A stretch of 64,000 nucleotides of DNA from a bacterium. GTDB lineage: Bacteria; Oederibacteriota; JAAXVQ01; JAUVAV01. Under the pieces are notes generated by a model. That model saw nothing but the letters and a program-made list of their open reading frames with translations. It was not told where the DNA came from and searched no databases. Positions 10,677-24,277 of the stretch are shown piece by piece (the first letter of the stretch is position 1; every line of letters begins with the position of its first letter). The DNA lies in NCBI GenBank assembly GCA_021108215.1, contig JAIORK010000036.1:22948-86947 (forward strand), given 5' to 3'. A program made the translations under genes and the position numbers.

Positions 10677-12977
10677 TTATCCGCTTATCTTGATTTGCCC
10701 TCTCAGCTCTTTGGCTGCTGCAACCATGTTGTGCAAGGCATCGTTGACTTCAGGCCAATTTCTGGTCTTCACTCCGCAATCAGGATTAATCCACAATTGT
10801 TCAACCGCCATAACTGCCATTGCTTTTTTCATCCTATTGATAATTGCTTCCTTTTCCGGAACAAGCGGTGAATGGATATCATAAACTCCCGGACCGATAT
10901 CATTGGGATACTTAAATTCACCAAAGGCCGTCAAAAGCACCATATCCGACCGCGAGGCCTCAATCGATATAACATCTGCGTCCATTGCGGCAATGGCATC
11001 CAAAATATCCTCAAAGTCCCCATAACACATGTGCGTATGAATCTGCGTTTCATTCTTAACCCCCGCTGATGCCAATCGAAAACAATCCACTCCCCATTTC
11101 AGATATGCGGGCCATTCGGTTTTTTTCAGCGGCAACCCTTCCCGCAAAGCCGGTTCATCAATCTGTATCACATGAATACCCGCTCGTTCCAAATCAGCTA
11201 CCTCATCCCGAATCGCCAAGGCGATTTGTTGACAGGTATCCTTCCTCGGCTGATCATCACGTACAAAAGACCATTGCAAAATAGTAACCGGTCCGGTAAG
11301 CATGCCTTTCATTGGTTTTTTCGTTAAAGATTGTGCAAAAGAACTCCACGCTACGGTCATCGGTTCTTTTCTTTCCACATCTCCATAAATAATCGGCGGT
11401 TTGACACAGCGAGACCCATAGCTCTGTACCCATCCGTTTTTAGTAAAGACAAAACCATCCAGATGTTCACCAAAATATTCAACCATATCCGTACGTTCAA
11501 ATTCTCCATGCACCAATACATCCAGGCCTATCTCTTCCTGAAATGCGATACACTTTCTTGTTTCTTCCTTTAAAAACTGTTGGTACGCTTCCTGATTCAA
11601 TTTCCCTGATTTTAAATCCCGTCTTTTCAAACGAACCGATTGCGTCTGCGGAAAAGATCCGATCGTTGTTGTCGGCAACAAAGGCAGCCGGAATTTTTCC
11701 TGCTGCATCTTTTTCCGTTCATTAAACGGAGCATTTCTGGCCAGCATCCGGGCAGTAACTTTGCGACCCCGTTCTTTAATCCGTAATTGATTGACTTTTT
11801 CCGATTTTCGTCTGAATTGAACAGCTGCCTGTCTTTTGGTTAATTCATCAGCTATTACACTCTTTCCTTGAGTGCCCACTTTTCCTAAAAGGACTATTTC
11901 ATCCATTTTTTCTTTTGCAAAACACAGCCAGGATTTAATCTCCTCATCAAGCTCGGTTTCTTCTTCCAGGCCAAACGGAACATGCAATAACGAACATGAA
12001 GAACTAATGATTACATTATTTTCACCCAGCTTGGTTATCGCTTTTTCAATCATTGGAATAAAAATCCCCAGATCGCTGCGCCAGATATTCCTCCCATTAA
12101 TCACACCCAGAGACAATTGTTGATCCGGTCTGATGATTTCCAAAACCTGATCAAGTTGTTCCGGCGCTCTAACAAGATCAACATGTAAACCATCGATTGG
12201 ACAATTGACAATGTCATTTAAATAATTTGTGATACCGCCAAAGTATGTGGTTAATTGTATTTTCCATCTTGAATCTACTGATGATAATTGTTTATAGGTT
12301 TTATGAACAGCTGCAGCAACGTCTTCTGCCCGGTCCAAAACCAAACAGGGTTCATCCATCTGAATCCAATCCGCCCCGGCTTCCGCCAATTTATCCAATA
12401 TAGCTTCATAAACCGGCAAAAGTAATGGCAATAATGTTAATACTGATGCCGCGCCATCAACCATTCTTCCCGACAAAAGATAAGAAACCGGCCCAAGCAA
12501 AACAGGCCGGGTATGAATCCCCATTGCCTTGGCCTCTTCAAATTCCCGAACCGCTTTCAATGCATAAAGTTTAAATTCCTGGTTTTCTTTAAATTCAGGA
12601 ACAAGATAGTGATAGTTGGTATCAAACCATTTGGTCATTTCCATGGCGGGAATATTCTGATTGTCGTTTTTTTTACCGCGTGCCATTGCAAAATATAAAT
12701 CAAGATCAATATCACCGTCATTCCAATTGTAGCGTTCGGGCACGGCACCTACCATACAAGTCGTATCAAGAACCTGATCATAAAACGAAAAATCATTGGA
12801 AGGAATAATTCCCAATTGATGTTCCTGCATTAGCCGCCAGTGAGCGACTCTTAATGCTGAAGCAACCTCAAGTAATTCTTCCTTATTTATTTCCCCCCTC
12901 CAATATTTTTCCAGAGCTTTTTTAAGCTCGCGTTTTTTTCCCATTCTGGGAAATCCTAAAACTGCAGTTTTGGCCAT
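10677..12977 (-). CDS. metE: cobalamin-independent methionine synthase MetE
   Basis: Full-length two-domain MetE (MAKTAVLGFPRMGKKRELK...; C-terminal Zn-site region HTHMCYGDF). Start set at the ATG at 12977; the longer ORF runs into the riboswitch terminator. Confidence 0.93.
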   Translation of the reverse strand: MAKTAVLGFPRMGKKRELKKALEKYWRGEINKEELLEVASALRVAHWRLMQEHQLGIIPSNDFSFYDQVLDTTCMVGAVPERYNWNDGDIDLDLYFAMARGKKNDNQNIPAMEMTKWFDTNYHYLVPEFKENQEFKLYALKAVREFEEAKAMGIHTRPVLLGPVSYLLSGRMVDGAASVLTLLPLLLPVYEAILDKLAEAGADWIQMDEPCLVLDRAEDVAAAVHKTYKQLSSVDSRWKIQLTTYFGGITNYLNDIVNCPIDGLHVDLVRAPEQLDQVLEIIRPDQQLSLGVINGRNIWRSDLGIFIPMIEKAITKLGENNVIISSSCSLLHVPFGLEEETELDEEIKSWLCFAKEKMDEIVLLGKVGTQGKSVIADELTKRQAAVQFRRKSEKVNQLRIKERGRKVTARMLARNAPFNERKKMQQEKFRLPLLPTTTIGSFPQTQSVRLKRRDLKSGKLNQEAYQQFLKEETRKCIAFQEEIGLDVLVHGEFERTDMVEYFGEHLDGFVFTKNGWVQSYGSRCVKPPIIYGDVERKEPMTVAWSSFAQSLTKKPMKGMLTGPVTILQWSFVRDDQPRKDTCQQIALAIRDEVADLERAGIHVIQIDEPALREGLPLKKTEWPAYLKWGVDCFRLASAGVKNETQIHTHMCYGDFEDILDAIAAMDADVISIEASRSDMVLLTAFGEFKYPNDIGPGVYDIHSPLVPEKEAIINRMKKAMAVMAVEQLWINPDCGVKTRNWPEVNDALHNMVAAAKELRGQIKISG

Positions 12978-12993
12978 CCTCGGGCCCCCTTTC

Positions 12994-13043
12994 AAAATAA
13001 AAAACCCTGACCTGTCATGCACGGGGCATAAAACAGACCAGGG
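12994..13043 (-). terminator. riboswitch expression-platform terminator (attenuator) upstream of metE
   Basis: RNA CCCUGGUCUGU...ACAGGUCAGGG (11 bp with two G-U pairs) followed by UUUUUUAUUUU, about 15 nt before the metE RBS region. Confidence 0.65.
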
Positions 13044-13094
13044 GATCATTGAAAGTCCTGCCTTCCGATGATGCTTTCCCGGCTGCTTCACCCC

Positions 13095-13278
13095 AATCCA
13101 CGAGGGTCAAACAAGTTTTTTGTCTTAAGCAGGTCTTCTGGCTTCCGGATCGTTCTACTAACCCAACCTTCCCATCCGTATTGAATAGTGGTCATTTGGG
13201 TGTTCGTCACCGGTTACAGCGGCGGGACCGCGACGGACTTGCACCGTCTTCCCTTTTCATCCTCTCGCGAGGAACATA
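13095..13278 (-). promoter_or_regulatory. cobalamin (B12) riboswitch
   Basis: Minus-strand RNA contains AAAAGGGAAGACGGUGCAAGUCCGUCGCGGUCCCGCCGCUGUAACCGG and the B12 box GAAGCCAGAAGACCUGCU (13129-13146). It sits in the metE leader. Confidence 0.85.
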
Positions 13279-13382
13279 AGACTTTTTTTATTAGATAGAT
13301 TTTATCGTTATAAAATTGAAAGTCAATCCTTAACTTACCGTTCCACATTTTTTTCGCGTTTTTTAGTGTGTCATGGAGCTGG

Positions 13383-14266: not shown

Positions 14267-16906
14267 TTATTTAACAATGCTAACTTTGATAGTCCCCTTC
14301 ACGCTCCCTTGCACAATAACACGCGCCATATAGACACCGGGCGCAACATCTTTGCAGTCCCAGTCCAGGCTTTGGCCCGGACCCTCCGGTAAATTTTCCT
14401 GCAGTACCGCCACGCGCTCACCGATCAAATTATAGAGCATAATCTCAACCTGGGCAGCTTGCTCCAAATGGAGCACAAAGCGCATCTCTGATTTGGCTGG
14501 ATTGGGAAATGCCAACGCCGGCCGGCCGCCCAGGTCGACATTGAGCAAAGGATTGTCCGGTGTCACGGTTGCGGTTGGCGTTACGGTCAAAGTGGGTGAG
14601 ACGGTTTGGGTCAATGTAATAGTTCCGGTCAGGGTAATGGTGGGTGTCACGGTTGCGGTAAAAGTGATGGTCCGGGTAGGTGTCGCGGTTGCGGTCGGCG
14701 GTCCAATCACAACCACATCCGTTGCAAACGAGGATGTATTGTTACTGCTGTCCGTGGCCAAAGCGGAAACCGTCTCTCCGCCAACCAGACCGGACGGCGT
14801 GAGGCTCCAGTTGCCCGAGCCATCGGCCGTGGTCCTGCCGACCAGGGAAATGCTCCCTCCCGGATTTCCGCCCGCTTCAGCCAGGAAAACCTCGATGTAA
14901 TCATTATTCCCCGCGGTTCCGGAAATCAGGGTGCTGGAGGCAGCCGTAATCACAGGCGGTATTTTATCCGTATTGCCGCCCGCGGACAACAGAATCGCAT
15001 CATGGCCTATCGCTGTGATGGTATTGGCAAACAAACCGTTTTGAATTGCATTGGAATTTAAAATACTAATTCCATAATTCATGCCGGTAAAAATATTTCC
15101 CGAACCGGTATGCTGAATACCAAAAAAATTGCCCTGCCCGTTCGAAATACGGACACCGGTACCCATGGTCAATCCAGTGGCCGTGCCGTCTGGCATGCAA
15201 TTAAGCCAGTTCTGGCATATGGTATTGTTGTCCGCTCCGTCATACAGTTCAAATCCGTAGTTTAAACAGTAAATATAGTTGCGGTCTTCAGGCAGCAGTC
15301 CGCCAATCACGTTATCGATCGCGACGCGAAGCTGGAAACCGTTAAAATTCTCGATTACGCTGCTACGGTCAAGACTCAACCCGATATCATTTCCCAGTAT
15401 ATAATTGCCAACCGCAAGTTCCAGAAAAACCGCATTCAAACTATTGCCGGAAATGATATTGCGGTAGATGGGATCCGGACCGCCGATATAATTGTTGGTG
15501 GCATTCGCGTAATATAAGCGGAGGCCGTGATAATTGGGAATCGCGGCATTTCCGGCCAGATTAAGGCCGATAATGTTTCCGATCACAGTATTTCCCTGGC
15601 AGTCGTAAATGAGCACACCCGCGTTTCCCGTACCACTGCTGCCTGAAATCAAATTGCCCCGCATCTGGCCGGCTGACAAATTGGGTCCGCCGACCAGATT
15701 ATTATCACCGGTTATCCATACCCCGCACTGGTCGCTGATGGCTGCCGCGTCACCGGCCCAGTTGGTGCCGATCAAATTGCCGCTTACCGTATTGCCCGAT
15801 CCTTGCAGCCGGATATTGTATTGGCTGCCGGATATCAGATTGCGTTCCTTATATGCTGCATTCAAATGACCGCCGATCGCGAAAGAAAACCCATACAGAT
15901 CAAGACCGTAACTGGAATTATTGGTAATCTGGTTGTTCTGGATAATATAATGATGCGAGGTTGTGGCAGTGTTATAAATGCCGCGGTCATTGGCCGCAAT
16001 GGTATTGCCATAACCGTCTACAGGCAAACCGATCCAGTTGTTATTGGAATAATTGCCGATACCAATCCCGGCAAAGGAGTGGCCCAAAGGTGTGGCCATA
16101 TCACTGCCCAGACCGATCACATTGCCGCAGACACTGTTGCCCGAGGTTGCCGCATAGGTGAAACGCAGACCCGAGTTGCTGTTGCCGGATATCAGGTTGC
16201 CCTCATTGGCATACCAGCTCCCACCGATCATATTATTTTCACATTGATCACCAAACTCCACGCCAACTAAATTAGGCCGGGCCAAAAGCCCGGAGCTGTC
16301 GGTCCCAATATAATTATTCTGGATTTTCATACTGCTGCAGTGACCAACATATATGCCATAATGGGTATTACTGGATATAATGTTGCGGTCACTGATATTG
16401 GGTGTGCCGATCACTGCATTCGTACTGCCCAAAATGTAAAGACCGTCGCGATTTGGCCGGCTTACATCTGTCCAGTCAAGACCGATCCTGCATCCGGTAA
16501 TTGAAATATTGTCGGCATTAACGGAGCGGATTGCCTGATACGCATCCACCAACGCTACATTTCTGAATTGCGTATTATCACTGGTTATGGCAATCAAAAA
16601 CATATACGTATTACTCTCCTGCGCCGGATAGTACCCGATCACCACGTCATTACTCTCCCCATCAATAATTAATTCATTATTAATCCATATTGCGCTGAAA
16701 ACCGTGATGGAATTGGAATTGCCGCTGGCGCCCGGCCCAAAGGTAATGGTATCACCTGCCGTGGCATCCAGAACCGCCTGGCGCAACGTCCCCGCACCGC
16801 TGTCCTCGCGGCTGGTGACTTGAATGGTAGCAGCTTGCGCAAGTGTCGCCATACCGCATAAAATAATAACTGCAATATACCTGACCCCTAAATATCTTTT
16901 CACCAT
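14267..16906 (-). CDS. secreted right-handed beta-helix (PbH1/CASH-type) repeat protein with Thr-rich linker and T9SS/FlgD-Ig-like C-terminal sorting domain
   Basis: Signal peptide (MATLAQA/AT). Many N-x-I-x-G-N / I-S-G-N repeat turns. TATATPTRTITFTATVTPTITLTGTITLTQTVSPTLTVTPTATVTP linker. C-terminal FPNPAKSEMRF...GVYMARV...VK. Confidence 0.75.
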   Translation of the reverse strand: MVKRYLGVRYIAVIILCGMATLAQAATIQVTSREDSGAGTLRQAVLDATAGDTITFGPGASGNSNSITVFSAIWINNELIIDGESNDVVIGYYPAQESNTYMFLIAITSDNTQFRNVALVDAYQAIRSVNADNISITGCRIGLDWTDVSRPNRDGLYILGSTNAVIGTPNISDRNIISSNTHYGIYVGHCSSMKIQNNYIGTDSSGLLARPNLVGVEFGDQCENNMIGGSWYANEGNLISGNSNSGLRFTYAATSGNSVCGNVIGLGSDMATPLGHSFAGIGIGNYSNNNWIGLPVDGYGNTIAANDRGIYNTATTSHHYIIQNNQITNNSSYGLDLYGFSFAIGGHLNAAYKERNLISGSQYNIRLQGSGNTVSGNLIGTNWAGDAAAISDQCGVWITGDNNLVGGPNLSAGQMRGNLISGSSGTGNAGVLIYDCQGNTVIGNIIGLNLAGNAAIPNYHGLRLYYANATNNYIGGPDPIYRNIISGNSLNAVFLELAVGNYILGNDIGLSLDRSSVIENFNGFQLRVAIDNVIGGLLPEDRNYIYCLNYGFELYDGADNNTICQNWLNCMPDGTATGLTMGTGVRISNGQGNFFGIQHTGSGNIFTGMNYGISILNSNAIQNGLFANTITAIGHDAILLSAGGNTDKIPPVITAASSTLISGTAGNNDYIEVFLAEAGGNPGGSISLVGRTTADGSGNWSLTPSGLVGGETVSALATDSSNNTSSFATDVVVIGPPTATATPTRTITFTATVTPTITLTGTITLTQTVSPTLTVTPTATVTPDNPLLNVDLGGRPALAFPNPAKSEMRFVLHLEQAAQVEIMLYNLIGERVAVLQENLPEGPGQSLDWDCKDVAPGVYMARVIVQGSVKGTIKVSIVK

Positions 16907-17246: not shown

Positions 17247-17450
17247 ATGGTACAAGGTAAAGTAAAGTGGTTTAATGATGCAAAAGGATTCGGTTTCTTG
17301 GAGCGCGAAGGCGGCAGTGATGTATTTGTTCATTTCTCAGCTCTCAAAGGCGACGGATTCAAAAGTTTGGCTGAAGGTGAAGCAGTAGAATTTGATGTCG
17401 TTGACGGTCCCAAAGGCCCTCAGGCATCCAATGTTTCCAAACTTGGCTAA
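17247..17450 (+). CDS. cold-shock protein, CspA family
   Basis: [21 protein letters not shown]...VFVHFS motifs, AGGAGG RBS. Confidence 0.93.
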
Positions 17451-17492
17451 GCAACCCATCCGACAACTCGTTGTATAGGTTTTAATTAAAAA

Positions 17493-17522
17493 CCCCCGTA
17501 CCTTTTGGTGCGGGGGTTTTTA
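17493..17522 (+). terminator. rho-independent terminator of csp
   Basis: CCCCCGTACC-TTTT-GGTGCGGGGG followed by TTTTT. Confidence 0.8.
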
Positions 17523-17597
17523 ATTTGGGGTAGCGCTACCCTACTGCTCCCCATTAACAAAAGAAGAGTAGTATAAAAGCTCTTTATTTTCCTACTA

Positions 17598-18320
17598 CTA
17601 ATAGCACTCATAGTACGGTGGCTTTTTGGGTGTTGGATATATTTTAGCCGAATAGTGTATGTTTTTTATCTTGTCACGAAATTTGTTTTGCAAAATAATA
17701 TTATTTCTAATTGCTGAAATATACTTATCCAGCGCTATTACTAAATCAACCTTTAAGGCATTAATTGATATCGGCAACCAATATCCAGCATAGTTATTCA
17801 AATGCGTTATTTCTCCGGCAGAATGAACTTGCACTATTTGGAAGTGTTTAACATCAAGCCTTTTTTCAAATATTATTTTGCCATCATTATCTGCTATTTG
17901 GAAATTGTGGCTGTAACTATTTCGTTCACCGTCTTCATCAGAAAATACCAACCACTTTAATATCGCTTTTTTACTTTCGAGATCTATTAATAGATTTTGT
18001 GGATGAAATCTATGACACAATCCATGTCGATACATGTAATAAAACCATTTAACTTCCTGGTCTTTGTAAATACTTGTGTCAAAATAATTACGAATAAATC
18101 CTAACTCAACATCCTCACCATCTTTCCCGAAGGGTCTTTGACCATGAAGATATTCACTCAATTCCAGCACATAACTAAAAAACATCAATGGAATAGTAAA
18201 CTCTCCTATCCCTGCTTTTAGAAGAGCACCCATTTCTAAGAGGATCGAGTTTTTATAATCTTTATCCAAATATTCGATTATCTGGTCACTGCTAACATTT
18301 TTAAATAATTTCCAAGACAT
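17598..18320 (-). CDS. hypothetical protein (orphan, AT-rich island)
   Basis: 240-aa ORF with a GGAG-type RBS, 32 nt downstream of the 777-aa gene. No recognisable motif. Confidence 0.65.
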   Translation of the reverse strand: MSWKLFKNVSSDQIIEYLDKDYKNSILLEMGALLKAGIGEFTIPLMFFSYVLELSEYLHGQRPFGKDGEDVELGFIRNYFDTSIYKDQEVKWFYYMYRHGLCHRFHPQNLLIDLESKKAILKWLVFSDEDGERNSYSHNFQIADNDGKIIFEKRLDVKHFQIVQVHSAGEITHLNNYAGYWLPISINALKVDLVIALDKYISAIRNNIILQNKFRDKIKNIHYSAKIYPTPKKPPYYECY

Positions 18321-18352
18321 ACCTCATCTCCATTTTAGACCACTTATTGATT

Positions 18353-20686
18353 TTATTTAATCGGATGTTTAGAAAGAATTTGTCGTGCTAATTCTTCTCC
18401 GTCATTTGGGCCTGGAAATCCACCTCTTTCCCGTAATCGTTCTTCAAGTTGTTTTTGTCTAAGTAAAATATGTTTTTGTACATTTTTCCATTGTTCTTCT
18501 GTGAAAACCTTCGGTTTTGTTTTAATTTCTTCGTCAACCTTGTTTGCCATATGTGTATTGTTTTTTGCACGCATTACTAATTGAATAGCATAAAAATGTG
18601 CATATATATCACCAATTGCGTAATCATCAGGATTTTTAGAAATTTCGCAATATGATTCCAGGATTGAGCGTATATTTGAAATACATAAGAGTAATACATC
18701 TTGCCACCACTCTCGGGTATAAAATAAAAGGCCTATGTACACCATAGAATCACATGCAATATCAGTCCATTCTTTAAATATGCTCTTCTTTCTATCAAAA
18801 GCAACCCAGTAAAATGACAAAATCCACGTGAATTTATCAACTAATTCTTTCACATCATTTTGGTTAGATCGTAGTGGATTATCTAATATCTGACACACAA
18901 CTTTAGCAATATGCTTAATTAGCTCATTAATCTCCCAAATAAGAAAACTATCTCCAAACTCATTTTTTTCTGCAACATTGCGCAAGTGCCGTGCAATGAT
19001 GTCTGTCATGTCTATTAATTCGTAATATGGATTTGTCGCATCTCGTTCAGGATCTACTTTCGGAAATATAGTTGCAGCCATAGCGAATAAATTCCCGAGT
19101 GAAGTTTGTTCGACAAGACTATATGCCTTTGTAAACGGATGATTCATTGATAGTCTTCCTTGAAGAGTTTCACTAATTATTGCAAAGGGCGCTAAATTTC
19201 CAAGTTTTTGAAAAACTTGGCCAAGTACTTCTTTGAAGTAATAATCTTTATTCCGAAGCATATGGTCAAGGATGATAAAATACTGTTTAATAACTTCTTC
19301 TGCTAATACAGGATTGCGGTTAATATAGAAGTACTGAGCAATTTCTGATATTCCATTTATAACTGGCAAGTGAATGTCTGAGTCATCAACATCCTTCGGA
19401 GTACATTTAATAATTCCAGAAAGCATGCCGCTCGTCTGAAACGGCACCTCATCAAGCCCTTTTGTTTGGGCAATCCTCACGCATGACAACATGTAGTTAA
19501 TTGGTTTCATAGACAATGGTGCAGTGTTCGGCCGGTATTTTCTTGCTCCTAAATTTGCTGTGTGGATAGTAATTTTCTTGTATGCTTCAGAAACACTTAA
19601 AGCTGCGGATTCATCATTTTGTGATATAGCAATACGGCTAATTTCATTTAACATTTCATAGGAACAGCCTGTAACTGCTTCTACATCAGATTGGGAAGTT
19701 AACAGCAATGTATCTGGGCAGGGCAAAATTAGTAAATTTAGCTTTCTTGCAGATAAATAATACATAGTCAAATGAGCAATCGCATACACAGCCGATTTCG
19801 TTAATAGTTTCTCATTTCGAGAAATAGCTTTTACTGCGATCTCAGATAAATCATTAATCCAACTATTGATAGTTTGGGGATAGCCGAACACTTGAGGATA
19901 ATAAATCGTTTCTATATCCTCAATTACCACTCCCTGCTTTTTTTCTTCCGGGAGTAATTTATAATGAAGTCTTGCTGATCGATTAACTGTCTTTTTTATA
20001 CGATCAATTGTTCTCATTGCTTGCTTGAGAGCAAGATTTGTTGAATAAGTTGGATCTAACAGCTTGCATATATGACGATGATACAAGCGTAGCAGATCAA
20101 GACTAAATCCCAGAGTTAATATAGCAACAGCTAATTTCAAGTTTTCTGAAACTCCAGCGAATCCACCCGCAGAAAAAGCAAAGCACGCTATACACAATAT
20201 CGCAAGAGCTACAAACGATGCATTTGTAATTAAGTCTCTCCGATAAAGACGGACAATTGAAGATGACCAAGCTTCTGCTGCACGTTGTATTGGTATAATT
20301 GATAGGGTTAATACAAGTGCCAGAATTGTTCCGTACGTGGCACCAAGTTGAATGAGCATTTTATCTATTGATTGCGTTGTGTTTAATGCTGTTCGCAAAG
20401 GCGGATAACCCAGAATAAATGATGCTATTATAAGGCCAATAATACCTATCATAATCTTGCTTGTTTTCAAAAGCAACCCACGACTAAACGAAGTAATATA
20501 AAACCATAAACGAACAACTTTTATTGTCAAATACGTTTTTATTCGCGTTATTATAGTTTTCAATCCATCACGTAGCGACATAATCATTCGTTTGAAATAT
20601 TTCACTAGTTTTGGCCACCATAGTATTACGTTTGTTGACCATAAATTGCGAATTTTAAAGTATGATTTGTTTTTATTTTGGTTCAT
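18353..20686 (-). CDS. hypothetical membrane protein (4-5 N-terminal TM helices plus ~550-aa helical cytoplasmic region)
   Basis: 777-aa uninterrupted ORF in AT-rich DNA with an AGAGGA RBS. TM segments at aa ~78-215. The segment LTLSIIPIQRAAEAWSSSIVRLYRRD is reminiscent of DUF2254-type membrane proteins (from memory, unverified). Confidence 0.7.
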   Translation of the reverse strand: MNQNKNKSYFKIRNLWSTNVILWWPKLVKYFKRMIMSLRDGLKTIITRIKTYLTIKVVRLWFYITSFSRGLLLKTSKIMIGIIGLIIASFILGYPPLRTALNTTQSIDKMLIQLGATYGTILALVLTLSIIPIQRAAEAWSSSIVRLYRRDLITNASFVALAILCIACFAFSAGGFAGVSENLKLAVAILTLGFSLDLLRLYHRHICKLLDPTYSTNLALKQAMRTIDRIKKTVNRSARLHYKLLPEEKKQGVVIEDIETIYYPQVFGYPQTINSWINDLSEIAVKAISRNEKLLTKSAVYAIAHLTMYYLSARKLNLLILPCPDTLLLTSQSDVEAVTGCSYEMLNEISRIAISQNDESAALSVSEAYKKITIHTANLGARKYRPNTAPLSMKPINYMLSCVRIAQTKGLDEVPFQTSGMLSGIIKCTPKDVDDSDIHLPVINGISEIAQYFYINRNPVLAEEVIKQYFIILDHMLRNKDYYFKEVLGQVFQKLGNLAPFAIISETLQGRLSMNHPFTKAYSLVEQTSLGNLFAMAATIFPKVDPERDATNPYYELIDMTDIIARHLRNVAEKNEFGDSFLIWEINELIKHIAKVVCQILDNPLRSNQNDVKELVDKFTWILSFYWVAFDRKKSIFKEWTDIACDSMVYIGLLFYTREWWQDVLLLCISNIRSILESYCEISKNPDDYAIGDIYAHFYAIQLVMRAKNNTHMANKVDEEIKTKPKVFTEEQWKNVQKHILLRQKQLEERLRERGGFPGPNDGEELARQILSKHPIK

Positions 20687-20788
20687 ATAATCCTCTGAAT
20701 CTATTTTCCTGTCAGCGAAATATAGGGCATTATCGTCAACTTTTAGCGGAATAGCAATTCAAAATATATTACACCGTAAATAGCACCG

Positions 20789-21157
20789 TTATTTTATACA
20801 TGACTGTTTCTTTATGGCTTTTACTACCAAATCACTGATTTCTTGCATTATCTCTGGATCGTATTGGATAAAATCAAGTCTACCGCTGCTTTTATCTTGG
20901 TTTTCTTTTACTACTTCTCGATCCATACGTTCAGTTATGATTTGGAAGACCTTTATATCACCCCGTGCCGCTTGTTTGATCATGGCGCCTGCAACCTTTT
21001 CCTGGCTGATACTGCCAGTCTCAAACTGTTCCTTGATAACAACATTCCAGTGACTGACTCCACACTTGGCACCGCAGGGATTTCCGCTTTGTCCCTTTCT
21101 TCTAATTAATTCTTTATAAACAAAAAAGAGCCTCCCTTTCGGGAGGCTCTTAAAGAT
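20789..21157 (-). pseudogene. phage-type DUF5681-like gene, apparently lacking a start codon
   Basis: The open frame encodes ...RRKGQSGNPCGAKCG... (K-G-Q-S-G-N-P-x-G signature) but has no ATG/GTG/TTG before Met at 20983. Its 5' part runs through the XRE-gene terminator. Confidence 0.4.
21127..21150 (-). terminator. rho-independent terminator of the XRE gene
   Basis: AGAGCCTCCC-GAAA-GGGAGGCTCT followed by TTTTTTG on the minus strand. Confidence 0.75.
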
Positions 21158-21359
21158 TCATTAGGTCCTTTAATTTAATCCCCAGCCCATGAGCTATCTT
21201 AGCTAGAGTGGTGAATTGCGGGTCCACAAGACCTTTTTCGATCTTACTTAGGTTGCCTTTGGACATGCCGTTTTCATAAGCTAGGTGTTCCAGGGTAATC
21301 CCCTTCTCCTTCCTTAGCTTATGTATCCTCATGCCCAGTTTTTCGGTTAATTGGCTCAT
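21150..21359 (-). CDS. XRE-family HTH transcriptional regulator
   Basis: 69-aa Cro/CI-type HTH (LRKEKGITLEHLAYENGMSKGNLSKIEKG). Confidence 0.85.
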   Translation of the reverse strand: MSQLTEKLGMRIHKLRKEKGITLEHLAYENGMSKGNLSKIEKGLVDPQFTTLAKIAHGLGIKLKDLMNL

Positions 21360-21395
21360 AATGGAGTTGATTTTACAATATTTTAGGTTTATAGT

Positions 21396-21413
21396 AGTTT
21401 CTTATAAGAAACT
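21396..21413. promoter_or_regulatory. 18-bp perfect palindrome, probable XRE operator
   Basis: AGTTTCTTATAAGAAACT in the divergent intergenic region between the XRE gene and the small plus-strand ORF. Confidence 0.5.
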
Positions 21414-21427
21414 TTTGGAGGTTAAAT

Positions 21428-21616
21428 ATGCAAATCTTAAAATCTACAATTCCTTATGTCATTGAATTTTCACCGGATGACATCAATTATTTACATTTGG
21501 CCTGTCATTATTATAAAGATTTACTGAAAAATAATAAGGACATGAAAAAAATCAAACGACGGGATAGACTTAAGCATCTAAACCAAATGATAACGCTCAT
21601 TGATTTGATGATGTGA
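21428..21616 (+). CDS. small hypothetical protein divergent from the XRE regulator
   Basis: 62-aa ORF with GGAGG 6 nt upstream of the ATG. No known motif. Confidence 0.45.
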   Translation: MQILKSTIPYVIEFSPDDINYLHLACHYYKDLLKNNKDMKKIKRRDRLKHLNQMITLIDLMM

Positions 21617-21647
21617 GGATTATCAAAAAAATATTTTTATATTTGTT

Positions 21648-22214
21648 CTATTTACTCTGCATTGCTAATAGCTCCGCCTTTTTTCCCTCCATCGGGGCTG
21701 AAATATGTATTCGTGATTTTTCTTTTTTACGCTTCTGGCCTCCCTGGTTTAATTTCGAGAGGTTTTCAGATATAAATCTATCAATATTCTCTTTAGCTTC
21801 CACATGAAAGCGAGCCACTCCGTTTTTAATATCCACATCTTTACCAGCCATGTGTATCAATTGATCAAGATACATTTTTACTTTAAATGCATGATATTTA
21901 ATCAAATCAACAATTTTTACCGAAGGCTGGCGAAAACCAATTTCCAAGTGAAGCCCAAGGACGCTTGCATAATTCAATAGATCACCAACAGCGATATCTT
22001 TGTCATAAGAGGATTCGATTTTGGATATTTTCCCCTGGGAACAACCAACTTTTTTCGCCAGTTTGGTCTGCGTGAGTTGGTGTTTGCAACGCAACATGAG
22101 CAGGAATTTGGAAATCATCCGGTTTTCGATTTCATACGCTACGCTTTTCTTGAATTCCTCATCCGTTGAAAGCCCTTCCATCATTTTCATAACATTTTCA
22201 TATTTTTTCGCCAT
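21648..22214 (-). CDS. HTH (XRE-type) antitoxin, HigA-like, with C-terminal extension
   Basis: HTH motif LTQTKLAKKVGCSQGKISKIESS. It shares one nucleotide with the upstream toxin gene (both ORF boundaries fall at 22214). Confidence 0.7.
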   Translation of the reverse strand: MAKKYENVMKMMEGLSTDEEFKKSVAYEIENRMISKFLLMLRCKHQLTQTKLAKKVGCSQGKISKIESSYDKDIAVGDLLNYASVLGLHLEIGFRQPSVKIVDLIKYHAFKVKMYLDQLIHMAGKDVDIKNGVARFHVEAKENIDRFISENLSKLNQGGQKRKKEKSRIHISAPMEGKKAELLAMQSK

Positions 22215-22585
22215 TATTGTCCCCCCTGTTTCATACCCTTTACCTTTTTCTTGTATTCCTCAATATCCCTACTCTGGGACCTCTTATCCCCTATTCCTAA
22301 AAGCACAACCCTCTTTTCCTTTACGTCGGAATAGATATAAAGCCGTGTTTCCTGGAGCTTCTTTCTTATTCCTCCACATCTTTGGTCAATCGCTTTGATG
22401 CCCATGGGTTCCGGATAGACAAACCCCACCTGGACCAACGAAGGCGACCCACACTCACACAAAGTCCTAAAATACGTGTCCAGGTTGTTCAAAACGCACT
22501 TTAATTCATCTTTGTGCTTTTTTTGATAGTGCTTGTGGTCCCTCTCGAAGGATTGCGTCGGTTGGAGATGCCATGGTTCCATCAT
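22214..22585 (-). CDS. RelE/ParE-superfamily toxin (HigB-like, toxin-first order)
   Basis: 123 aa. C-terminal RLYIYSDVKEKRVVLLGIGDKRSQSRDI is typical of RelE/HigB-type toxins. Confidence 0.6.
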   Translation of the reverse strand: MMEPWHLQPTQSFERDHKHYQKKHKDELKCVLNNLDTYFRTLCECGSPSLVQVGFVYPEPMGIKAIDQRCGGIRKKLQETRLYIYSDVKEKRVVLLGIGDKRSQSRDIEEYKKKVKGMKQGGQ

Positions 22586-23556: not shown

Positions 23557-23603
23557 AGAAATAGAAAACCCTGCACCTTATTGGTGCAGGATTTTCTATT
23601 TCT
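23557..23603 (-). terminator. long hairpin terminator immediately 3' of tRNA-Glu
   Basis: AGAAATAGAAAA(C)CCTGCACC-TTATT-GGTGCAGG(A)TTTTCTATTTCT, a 20-bp interrupted stem. Confidence 0.65.
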
Positions 23604-23677
23604 GGTAGCGCTACGGGGAATCGAACCCCGGCTTGATGACTGAGAATCATCCGTCCTAGCCGCTAGACGATAGCGCC
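23603..23677 (-). tRNA. tRNA-Glu (anticodon CUC), CCA encoded
   Basis: GGCGCTA TC GTCT AGCGGCTA GGAC G GATGA TTCTCAG TCATC AAGC CGGGG TTCGATT CCCCG TAGCGCT A CCA. Cloverleaf with the 4-nt variable loop typical of tRNA-Glu. Confidence 0.9.
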
Positions 23678-23860
23678 ATGAGCGAAGCGAATAGCTCTGC
23701 TGTTCTGCTGCTCTGATTTCAATAAATATGTACAAGCCAATTCCAACAACTTAAAAATATGATCAGCGGACCAGCCGATAGCAGACCGCTGGTTCGCTTT
23801 TTCCTGCTGTTCTGCTGCTCTGATGCTCACCTGCTCTGCAATTTCGCTTTTTCGAAATTG

Positions 23861-23916
23861 CGAACCCCGGCTTGATGACTGAGAATCATCCGTCCTAGCC
23901 GCTAGACGATAGCGCC
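23861..23916 (-). pseudogene. 3'-truncated tRNA-Glu copy (nt 1-56)
   Basis: Identical to the intact gene up to GGTTCG of the T-loop. The 3' T-stem, acceptor strand and CCA are replaced by the CAATTTCG hairpin. Confidence 0.85.
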
Positions 23917-24099
23917 ATGAGCGAAGCGAATAGCTCTGCTGTTCTGCTGCTCTGATTTCAATAAATATGTACAAGCCAATTCCAACAACTTAAAAATATG
24001 ATCAGCGGACCAGCCGATAGCAGACCGCTGGTTCGCTTTTTCCTGCTGTTCTGCTGCTCTGATGCTCACCTGCTCTGCAATTTCGCTTTTTCGAAATTG

Positions 24100-24133
24100 C
24101 GAACCCCGGCTTGATGACTGAGAATCATCCGTC
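24100..24133 (-). pseudogene. internal tRNA-Glu fragment (anticodon arm to T-loop)
   Basis: GACGGATGATTCTCAGTCATCAAGCCGGGGTTCG only. The upstream side is replaced by the hairpin GTCTTGC-TGC-GCAAGAC. Confidence 0.8.
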
Positions 24134-24156
24134 GTCTTGCGCAGCAAGACAGCTCT

Positions 24157-24252
24157 GCTGTTCTGCTGTTCTGCTGTTCTGCTGTTCTGCTGTTCTGCTG
24201 TTCTGCTGTTCCGCTGTTCTGATGCTCTGCTGTTCTGATGTTCTGCTGCTCT
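24157..24252. repeat. octanucleotide microsatellite (GCTGTTCT)x12
   Basis: Twelve head-to-tail 8-mers: eight exact copies and four variants with 1-2 mismatches (GCTGTTCC, GATGCTCT, GATGTTCT, GCTGCTCT). Confidence 0.9.
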
Positions 24253-24277
24253 GCCACTCTTTCTCACTACGAAAGAG

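What the first reader, a model, noticed from the sequence alone, without database searches (positions are those of the whole stretch)
17598..20686. Orphan AT-rich two-gene operon (777-aa polytopic membrane protein plus 240-aa protein) in a TA- and phage-remnant-rich island
Seen. Two long uninterrupted ORFs in the most AT-rich DNA of the window are separated by 32 nt, and each has an SD-like sequence. The 777-aa protein has 4-5 N-terminal TM helices (aa ~78-215) followed by ~550 aa of helical sequence. The 240-aa protein is soluble. I recognise no enzymatic motif in either. Their neighbours are a DUF5681-like phage remnant, an XRE switch, a HigBA-like pair and a four-helix-bundle gene, all next to a tRNA. 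That is the typical context of defence or superinfection-exclusion cargo. Inference. This is a candidate uncharacterised membrane-acting defence or exclusion pair. From memory only, the first TM region weakly recalls DUF2254-type membrane proteins.
Basis: partly seen in the sequence, partly recalled or inferred. Interest (0 to 1): 0.7.

Follow-up and report, generated by a model that had tools for sequence, protein, structure and literature searches.

The report
Mobile membrane-solenoid gene, candidate phage defence
The large gene belongs to an unstudied family of membrane proteins that usually travel alone and often sit among restriction and other anti-phage genes, which suggests a defence role, while the small downstream gene is a local add-on rather than a conserved partner.

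Summary
The two ORFs are real. They share a strand, are 32 nt apart, each has an SD-like sequence, they lie in the window's lowest-GC DNA, and a strong bidirectional terminator follows them.

"Orphan" is wrong for gene A (777 aa). It has at least 103 other full-length homologue clusters at 32-56% identity. Its four-helix membrane module is homologous to the N-terminal half of Pfam DUF2254, and about 560 aa of cytoplasmic alpha-solenoid follows (AF2 pLDDT 88).

About 9-10 of 14 independent loci place A homologues among defence or mobile-element genes. One directly follows hsdRMS and one follows a Type III mod gene. Others sit beside NACHT, nSTAND3 + Type ISP, TIR/SEFIR or AbiEii + DUF499/DUF1156/SNF2 genes, or are ICE cargo. 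No neighbour recurs, so A acts as a single-gene unit. Neither protein matches any PADLOC model or any of 50,697 phage records.

Gene B (240 aa) belongs to a sparse, unannotated family with an invariant R-x4-H...P motif. It is next to A only here and in an 89%-identical relative.

Best reading (confidence about 0.4): A is a single-protein sensor-effector for abortive infection or exclusion, and B is a lineage-specific accessory. The defence role rests on gene neighbourhood only.

The parts
18353..20686 (-). Gene A, 777 aa: membrane-anchored alpha-solenoid protein of a roughly 740-aa family related to DUF2254.
   Evidence: ORF. 104 homologue clusters including its own. AF2 pLDDT 88.3, pTM 0.83. 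DUF2254 hit in 47 of 61 members.
20060..20455 (-). A, aa 78-209: four-TM module and the most conserved part of the family. Invariant G115, A123, L124, S129, A136, Y148, F169, D197, L199, R200. Near-invariant P132, Q134, R135, E138.
   Evidence: Conservation 0.71-0.90 majority frequency, against about 0.6 for the solenoid. Matches Pfam DUF2254 profile positions about 11-210 of 368.
18368..20053 (-). A, aa 212-773: cytoplasmic alpha-solenoid (HEAT/ARM-like helical repeats), the putative sensor or interaction domain.
18321..18352 (-). 32-nt A-B intergenic spacer with a GGAG/GAGG Shine-Dalgarno sequence for B. No terminator here, so the genes are co-transcribed.
   Evidence: Sequence. No terminator-like site here.
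17598..18320 (-). Gene B, 240 aa: soluble protein of a sparse, unannotated family of about 220 aa.
   Evidence: ORF. 2 close relatives. 49 representatives by exhaustive HMMER. No Pfam or PDB match.
18000..18029 (-). B, aa 98-107, RHGLCHRFHP: the family's invariant core (R98, H103, P107; near-invariant H99, G100). It has the form R-x4-H, and also H-x3-H.
   Evidence: Alignment of 49 sequences.
17484..17525 (.). Bidirectional intrinsic terminator shared by B (-) and the convergent cspA-like gene (+, 17247-17450).
   Evidence: Hairpin of -26.3 kcal/mol, z = -5.9, flanked by A- and U-tracts.
20729..20757 (-). Candidate sigma-70-like promoter (TTGCTA-17-GATAAT) upstream of A. This is a consensus match only.
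   Evidence: Promoter-like sites are not above the shuffled expectation in this AT-rich region.
20789..21124 (-). DUF5681-like frame without a canonical start codon (mobile-element remnant), between the XRE terminator and A.
   Evidence: E 1.4e-5, 26.0 bits, gathering score 27.5. Strong terminator at 21126-21151.
21150..22585 (-). Island context: XRE HTH (21150-21359), HTH_3 antitoxin-like 188 aa (21648-22214), and a weak RelE/HI1419-like 123 aa ORF (22214-22585).
23603..23677 (-). tRNA-Glu(CUC). The low-GC island (about 17.5-23.5 kb) lies directly 3' of it.
   Evidence: No att-like repeat and no integrase found.

Best explanation
Gene A encodes a horizontally mobile, single-protein membrane module, and it works without a conserved partner.

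Shown:
- A has a highly conserved four-helix transmembrane domain homologous to the membrane half of DUF2254. It carries invariant or near-invariant polar residues (P132, Q134, R135, E138, D197, R200).
- This domain is fused to a roughly 560-aa alpha-solenoid.
- Family members usually occur as solitary cargo genes. Many are embedded in or next to restriction-modification operons, NTPase/TIR/Abi defence genes and integrative elements.
- In this window A is co-transcribed with B from the DNA downstream of the XRE terminator, and the transcript ends at a strong bidirectional terminator.

Inferred:
- From hydrophobicity and the positive-inside rule, both termini and the solenoid face the cytoplasm.
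- A is an abortive-infection or exclusion type defence protein. The cytoplasmic solenoid would recognise an invader component or an infection-induced state. It would then switch the conserved TM module, probably as an oligomer, into a state that dissipates membrane potential or integrity.
- Gene B belongs to a separate sparse family with an invariant R-x4-H...P core. It is a lineage-specific accessory, either a second effector (for example a HEPN-like RNase or a His-metal hydrolase) or a modulator. It is not a defining component.
For: - Family size and full-length conservation.
- High-confidence TM + solenoid model. Only repeat-protein fold matches and no enzyme fold.
- The TM module is the most conserved region.
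- DUF2254 homology is limited to profile positions 11-210 of 368.
- Contexts of A homologues:
  - hsdR-hsdM-hsdS-[A], 6-nt gap, in L014.
  - ResIII-BroN-N6_N4_Mtase-[A]-PDC-M32A, with GmrSD_N nearby, in L009/L023.
  - [A]-NACHT in L016/L017.
  - smpB / nSTAND3 / Type ISP in L024.
  - SEFIR-TIR_2 and NTP_transf_2 in L025.
  - DUF2971, transposases and NucS_C in L026.
  - AbiEii plus DUF499/DUF1156/SNF2 in L027.
  - ICE cargo beside N6_Mtase and a helicase in L005-L008.
- No recurring neighbour across these loci, and frequent opposite orientation to flanking genes.
- In the window, A sits in a low-GC island next to a tRNA, with a TA-like pair, an XRE gene and a DUF5681 remnant.
- A and B form an operon: 32-nt gap, SD, no internal terminator, strong terminal hairpin.
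- The A-B block is conserved at 89% nt in L001 while the downstream flank differs.
Against: - There is no functional evidence. The defence role rests on neighbourhood association in about 9-10 of 14 independent loci. No genome-wide background rate was computed.
- At least three closer homologues sit in plain housekeeping surroundings: Thiobacillus L003/L004 (two-component system and Mur ligase), L010 (TauD), L013 (TctC/PMSR).
- The bulk scan of neighbours, which included the distant 25-30% members, also found many metabolic genes.
- Neither protein hits any PADLOC model.
- The solenoid is fairly evenly conserved, with no hypervariable sensor-like patch.
- Pore or depolarising activity of the TM module is pure inference. 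DUF2254 has no known function.
Confidence: 0.4

Rival explanations
1. A is a non-defence membrane protein, for example a stress-responsive regulator, scaffold, or transporter or channel accessory of the DUF2254 superfamily. It is simply part of the flexible genome and ends up in variable regions, which also collect defence genes. B is an unrelated small gene that happens to share the transcript.
For: Housekeeping contexts for some homologues and many metabolic neighbours in the bulk scan. DUF2254 is a large, broadly distributed family with no defence annotation. No PADLOC hit. The solenoid is evenly conserved, like a scaffold.
Against: Direct operonic embedding after hsdS and after a Type III mod gene, and repeated adjacency to NACHT, STAND, TIR, Abi and Type ISP genes in unrelated taxa. 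Patchy taxonomic distribution and ICE carriage point to selection as mobile cargo.
Confidence: 0.3
2. A is an accessory of restriction-modification systems or of conjugative elements, not an autonomous immune effector. It could be a membrane tether or regulator that localises or controls R-M complexes, or an entry-exclusion factor of ICEs.
For: Same-strand placement 6 nt after hsdS (L014), and directly after or overlapping a Type III mod gene (L009). Beside MTase and helicase genes inside an ICE. A solenoid is a typical protein-protein interaction scaffold.
Against: Most homologues, including the one in this window, have no R-M or conjugation genes next to them. The R-M types differ (I, III, ISP, IIG-like), so no specific partner is conserved. 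Periplasmic exposure is minimal, which is unusual for entry exclusion.
Confidence: 0.12
3. A and B form a toxin-antitoxin or addiction pair that stabilises the island: a membrane toxin with a soluble neutraliser, or a HEPN-like toxin B kept in check by A.
For: Tight two-gene operon. The A-B block is kept together at 89% nt identity while the flank changes. The island already carries a TA-like pair. B has an R-x4-H motif like HEPN toxins.
Against: The two families are unlinked everywhere else examined. A toxin or antitoxin that normally lives without its partner is not a TA component. At 777 aa, A is far larger than known TA components.
Confidence: 0.08
4. The pair is leftover prophage cargo, a superinfection-exclusion moron from a degraded prophage.
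For: DUF5681-like remnant and XRE repressor-like gene immediately upstream, low GC, position 3' of a tRNA.
Against: No homologue of A or B in 50,697 phage records. PHROG hits are only at E of about 0.06. No integrase, att repeat or phage structural genes in the island.
Confidence: 0.05

Closest known systems
Pfam PF10011 / InterPro IPR018723, DUF2254 (predicted membrane protein, function unknown)
   Same: Homologous N-terminal multi-helix membrane module. 47 of 61 A-family members hit the HMM (best E 4.4e-13). P0029 passes the gathering score (33.9 against 28.8 bits). The window protein scores 16.6 bits, E 0.0037.
   Different: Only profile positions about 11-210 of 368 are matched. The C-terminal half of DUF2254, where the literature describes a predicted 3_1 knot or slipknot (PMC11184937), is not matched. 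A roughly 560-aa alpha-solenoid follows instead, making the proteins about twice as long as the 368-position Pfam model.
Single-protein or membrane-effector abortive-infection systems (RexB-type 4-TM proteins; TM effectors of CBASS/Pycsar/retrons; KwaA of Kiwa). Named from general knowledge; not compared structurally here.
   Same: Proposed logic only: a small helical TM module as the killing or depolarising effector, encoded in defence islands, with cytoplasmic sensing.
   Different: No sequence similarity to any PADLOC model at E up to 1. Sensor and effector would be fused in one polypeptide. There is no nucleotide-signalling partner and no NTPase.
STAND/Avs-type pattern-recognition defence proteins with helical-repeat sensor arms (from general knowledge)
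   Same: A long alpha-helical repeat domain as a plausible ligand-recognition surface, with single-gene organisation in defence islands.
   Different: A has no NTPase or Walker motifs and no nuclease or TIR effector. The effector position is occupied by a membrane domain at the N-terminus.
HEPN superfamily and DinB/YfiT four-helix bundles (for gene B)

Membership tests
DUF2254 (PF10011) | Pfam HMM score at or above the gathering threshold (28.8 bits) | tested here: inconclusive
   The window protein scores 16.6 bits, E 0.0037, below threshold. The family as a whole gives 47 of 61 members at E up to 0.01, best 4.4e-13, and P0029 scores 33.9 bits, above threshold. Homology of the TM module is therefore credible at the family level.
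DUF2254 (PF10011) | Match over the full 368-position profile, including the C-terminal half | tested here: not met
   Matches cover only profile positions 40-209 (window protein) and 11-170 (P0029). The rest of A is an alpha-solenoid.
DUF2254 (PF10011) | Predicted 3_1 knot or slipknot topology reported for the family (PMC11184937) | not tested
   No knot analysis was run on model m4dc89ede273d. The region described as knotted may lie in the unmatched half.
Known or candidate anti-phage defence families (PADLOC-DB v2.0.0) | HMM match to any of 5027 defence-protein models | tested here: not met
   0 families at E up to 1 for both A and B.
Defence-island gene (guilt by association) | Homologues preferentially located next to known defence genes in unrelated genomes | tested here: inconclusive
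   About 9-10 of 14 independent loci of the clade at 35% identity or above carry R-M, NACHT/STAND, TIR, Abi, ICE or transposase genes within about 8 kb. 3-4 loci are housekeeping. No background rate was computed.
Conserved two-gene (A+B) system | Co-occurrence of both families across divergent genomes | tested here: not met
   The B-family HMM finds no member in the 25 fetched loci of other lineages that carry an A homologue. B's distant relatives lack A neighbours. Adjacency is seen only in L001, 89% nt identical. P0108 and L002 have an upstream same-strand gene of unknown identity.
HEPN superfamily (gene B) | Conserved R-x4-6-H motif | tested here: met
   R98 and H103 are invariant in 49 sequences. 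H99 and G100 are at least 90% conserved.
HEPN superfamily (gene B) | HEPN four-helix bundle fold, or a hit to a HEPN family profile | tested here: inconclusive
Prophage superinfection-exclusion cargo | Homologues present in phage genomes | tested here: not met
   tblastn of A and B against 50,697 phage records gave no match. PHROG hits only at E of about 0.06.

The most novel reading that the evidence does not exclude
The roughly 740-aa 'DUF2254-TM + alpha-solenoid' family would be a previously unrecognised, widespread single-gene anti-phage or anti-MGE immunity protein. A cytoplasmic repeat sensor would directly gate its own conserved four-helix membrane effector. This would give the first function to the membrane module of the large DUF2254 superfamily. 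Gene B's family (invariant R-x4-H...P) would be a new small effector that can be bolted on.
Probability: 0.3. Interest if true: 0.7.

Novelty: new variant of a known kind. Interest (0 to 1): 0.5.

Why it matters
DUF2254 is a large membrane-protein family; the knot study counted more than 7,000 AlphaFold models. I found no functional literature on it. Its solenoid-fused branch is repeatedly wired into R-M operons and defence islands in Beta- and Gammaproteobacteria and in unclassified MAG lineages. That gives a concrete, testable functional lead: one gene to clone, and clear point mutants to make (D197, R200, Q134, R135).

If confirmed, it would add a sensor-fused-to-membrane-effector architecture to bacterial immunity. 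It would also annotate hundreds of 'hypothetical' genes.

If not confirmed, the finding is an ordinary flexible-genome membrane protein. The lesson would be that the apparent two-gene 'system' is a lineage-specific juxtaposition.

Tried and rejected
- Pfam, NCBIfam, PHROGs and PADLOC on both proteins gave only a sub-threshold DUF2254 hit for A.
I repeated it on 61 members.
- PDB sequence searches with both family profiles found nothing meaningful.
- I suspected that the divergent 247-aa genes upstream of A homologues in L025 and L026 were a conserved partner or B analogue. They are unrelated to each other and to B.
- I looked for B-like domains fused to longer A-family members and found none. 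The extra length is N-terminal.
- The search for related loci with the B-family alignment failed in both collections because no stretch was conserved enough.
- The context of P0108 (42% identical to B) could not be read: 1.2-kb contig, no DNA held.
- The 21-aa gene end upstream of the L002 B homologue could not be assigned.
- A search for att-type repeats bounding the island or an integrase found nothing.
- Promoter-like sites are not above shuffled expectation.
- Plasmid search gave one distant hit for A (Ensifer adhaerens pB, 25% identity, unannotated) and none for B.
- Literature searches for DUF2254, IPR018723 and PF10011 found only a protein-knot paper and irrelevant Plasmodium gene IDs. 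A search for TM + HEAT-repeat defence proteins listed no title describing this architecture (titles and abstract openings only).
Full report
**1. Observation**

The window holds two uninterrupted minus-strand ORFs, gene A (18353-20686, 777 aa) and gene B (17598-18320, 240 aa). They are 32 nt apart.

- B's ATG is preceded by GGAGATGAGGT, and A's by AGAGGATTAT.
- No terminator-like site lies between them.
- Downstream of B is a hairpin flanked by A- and U-tracts at 17484-17525 (-26.3 kcal/mol, z = -5.9). It is shared with a convergent cold-shock gene.
- Upstream of A there is a strong terminator after the XRE gene (21126-21151). Then comes a stop-free frame with a near-threshold DUF5681 match and no canonical start codon.
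- GC content is 0.33-0.36 across the pair, the minimum of the window, and 0.30-0.46 across about 17.5-23.5 kb, against about 0.47 outside.
- The island lies directly 3' of tRNA-Glu. I found no att-type repeat and no integrase.

The sequence-level observation is confirmed.

**2. Gene A is not an orphan**

An indexed search of 5.8 billion proteins returned 104 clusters, the query's own and 103 others at 32-56% identity. Most cover about 90% of the query. The query is identical to NCBI hypothetical protein K8S19_08125 from an unclassified bacterial MAG.

A genome scan places relatives in MAGs of these groups:
- Polaromonas, Thiobacillus and other Betaproteobacteria.
- Woeseiaceae, Rariloculaceae and Pseudohongiellaceae.
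- More distantly (25-30% identity), Vicinamibacteria, Spirochaetota, Bryobacterales and Paramagnetospirillum marisnigri.

This distribution is patchy.

**3. Architecture of A**

AlphaFold2 with the 97-sequence alignment gives pLDDT 88.3 and pTM 0.83.

- A long N-terminal helix is followed by four hydrophobic helices at about aa 78-209. An all-alpha repeat domain runs to the C-terminus.
- From the hydrophobic segments and the basic loop 135-152, I infer that both termini and the solenoid are cytoplasmic. The periplasmic loops would be only about 7-10 residues.
- The PDB sequence search is empty.
- The membrane module is the most conserved part of the family. Majority-residue frequency is 0.71-0.90 there, against about 0.6 for the solenoid.
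- It holds invariant G115, A123, L124, S129, A136, Y148, F169, D197, L199 and R200, and near-invariant P132, Q134, R135 and E138.
- A TM domain this conserved, with conserved polar residues, looks functional rather than a passive anchor. That is inference.

**4. Relation to DUF2254**

- The window protein alone hits PF10011 at E 0.0037 (16.6 bits, gathering score 28.8).
- Across the family, 47 of 61 members hit at E up to 0.01 (best 4.4e-13), and P0029 exceeds the gathering score.
- Every match covers only profile positions about 11-210 of 368.
- A's family therefore shares the membrane half of DUF2254 and replaces the remainder with a solenoid.

DUF2254 has no functional literature in the searchable library. 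The one substantive paper discusses a predicted knot.

**5. Genomic context of A homologues**

The other loci came from one genome scan.

| Locus | Neighbours |
|---|---|
| L014 | hsdR-hsdM-hsdS, then A after 6 nt, same strand |
| L009/L023 | GmrSD_N, ResIII, Bro-N, N6_N4 methylase, then A (ORFs overlap by 4 nt), then a PDC-M32A candidate |
| L016/L017 | A followed by a 1321-1381-aa NACHT protein; DUF3800 nearby |
| L024 | smpB, nSTAND3, a Type ISP enzyme |
| L025 | SEFIR/TIR_2 protein, NTP_transf_2, Metallophos |
| L026 | DUF2971, transposases, NucS_C |
| L027 | AbiEii and a DUF499/DUF1156/SNF2 trio |
| L005-L008 | Cargo of an ICE (TraG-D_C, DUF2859, DUF3275), beside N6_Mtase and a helicase |
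| L012 | An RHS-repeat protein |
| L003/L004/L011 | Thiobacillus: two-component system and Mur ligase (housekeeping) |
| L010 | TauD (housekeeping) |
| L013 | TctC, PMSR (housekeeping) |

- A bulk scan of neighbours also found Upx, mad2, RmrA, PDC-M48B, integrases and IS66, along with many metabolic genes.
- No neighbour recurs across loci, and A is often oriented against its flanks.
- About 9-10 of 14 independent loci of the closer clade are defence or mobile contexts. I did not compute a background rate, so this is suggestive and not a statistic.
- Neither A nor B matches any PADLOC model or any of 50,697 phage records.
- Only one plasmid, Ensifer adhaerens pB, carries a distant A relative.

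**6. Gene B**

- The indexed search found only two relatives, at 85% and 51% identity.
- An exhaustive HMMER profile search of 1.84 billion representatives found 49 proteins of about 190-290 aa.
- Their alignment has invariant R98, H103 and P107, and near-invariant G39, Y85, H99, G100, W123, H159 and D192. The consensus motif is YRHGxxHxxxPK.
- None of the 49 hits a consistent Pfam family, and no PDB sequence matches.
- The AF2 model came from only three sequences: pLDDT 70, with one confident model of five. It shows four N-terminal helices, a beta-sheet and two C-terminal helices.
- The R-x4-H motif fits HEPN, and the conserved histidines would also fit a metal site. Neither is established.

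**7. Are A and B a system?**

- In L001 (Logan SRR29278628), an 89%-nt-identical block carries the A 3' end and B. Similarity stops just after B's stop codon. L001 continues with an unrelated 220-aa gene where the window has the terminator and cspA.
- Beyond that close relative, the link disappears. A B-family HMM finds nothing in the 25 fetched loci of other lineages that carry an A homologue.
- No A-family protein carries a fused B-like domain.
- Three distant B relatives on longer contigs have no A or DUF2254 neighbour. Theirs are a TPR-methyltransferase, a pentapeptide-repeat protein, and DUF4145 with UDG.
- Two intermediate B relatives (P0107, P0108) are preceded by a same-strand gene whose identity could not be determined.
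- The pair is therefore a lineage-specific juxtaposition of two independent families. It is co-transcribed here, but it is not a conserved two-component system.

**8. Interpretation**

The best-supported reading is that A is a mobile, self-sufficient membrane protein selected as cargo of defence and mobile regions.

- I propose, at confidence about 0.4, an abortive-infection or exclusion sensor-effector. The cytoplasmic solenoid would sense, and the DUF2254-type TM module would act on the membrane.
- B would be an optional accessory.
- The architecture, family membership, operon structure and contexts are shown. The sensing and membrane-damage steps are inferred.

Rivals:
- An ordinary flexible-genome membrane protein (0.3).
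- An accessory of R-M systems or ICEs (0.12).
- A toxin-antitoxin-like pair (0.08).
- A prophage exclusion remnant (0.05).

**9. Novelty and score**

- A is a member of an uncharacterised branch of a known DUF superfamily. Its defence association does not appear in PADLOC v2 or in the searchable literature.
- If it does work in defence, it is a new variant of the familiar 'sensor plus membrane effector' logic.
- Candidate defence genes supported only by neighbourhood are common, so I set interest at 0.5.

Noticed in passing
window 23622-24273: Exact 239-nt tandem duplication (23622-23860 = 23861-24099), plus a third 34-nt copy at 24100-24133. Each copy starts inside tRNA-Glu(CUC) (23603-23677, minus strand), so truncated tRNA-Glu copies lie between tRNA-Glu and tRNA-Gln. 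An 8-nt (TCTGCTGT)n microsatellite follows at about 24130-24273. This could be a real duplication or a MAG assembly artefact.
   Followed up: partly
window 13111-13294 (-): Cobalamin riboswitch (RF00174, 124.5 bits) immediately upstream of the cobalamin-independent methionine synthase (metE-like) ORF at 10677-13091. This is the classic B12 repression of metE.
   Followed up: no
window 20789-21124 (-): The stop-free frame upstream of the 64-aa ORF carries a degenerate GNPCGAKCG motif and matches DUF5681 (E 1.4e-5, 26.0 bits, just under the gathering score). It has no ATG, GTG or TTG before residue M at 20983, so it is probably a decayed mobile-element gene.
   Followed up: yes
L009 and L023 (whole loci): MAGs assigned to Polaromonas (Betaproteobacteria) and Pseudohongiellaceae (Gammaproteobacteria) carry A homologues with identical match coordinates, identity and HMM score (L023 was not annotated itself; in L009 the neighbours are a Type III R-M). 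This indicates either very recent horizontal transfer or cross-contamination between bins from the same study.
   Followed up: no
L001 1594-2256 (+): In the 89%-identical relative, a third 220-aa gene with no family match follows B, where the window has a terminator and cspA. The module's downstream end therefore varies between close relatives.
   Followed up: partly
window 14267-16906 (-): An 879-aa ORF with an N-terminal signal-like hydrophobic segment, many short Gly/Asn-rich repeats, a Thr/Pro-rich linker and a C-terminal domain. It sits just outside the island. It looks like a secreted repeat or beta-helix protein, but I did not analyse it.
   Followed up: no
L015 455-2714 (+): The A homologue in Betaproteobacteria bacterium RBG_16_58_11 is split into two overlapping ORFs (455-1066 and 951-2714). 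This suggests a frameshift, from pseudogenisation or a sequencing error.
   Followed up: no
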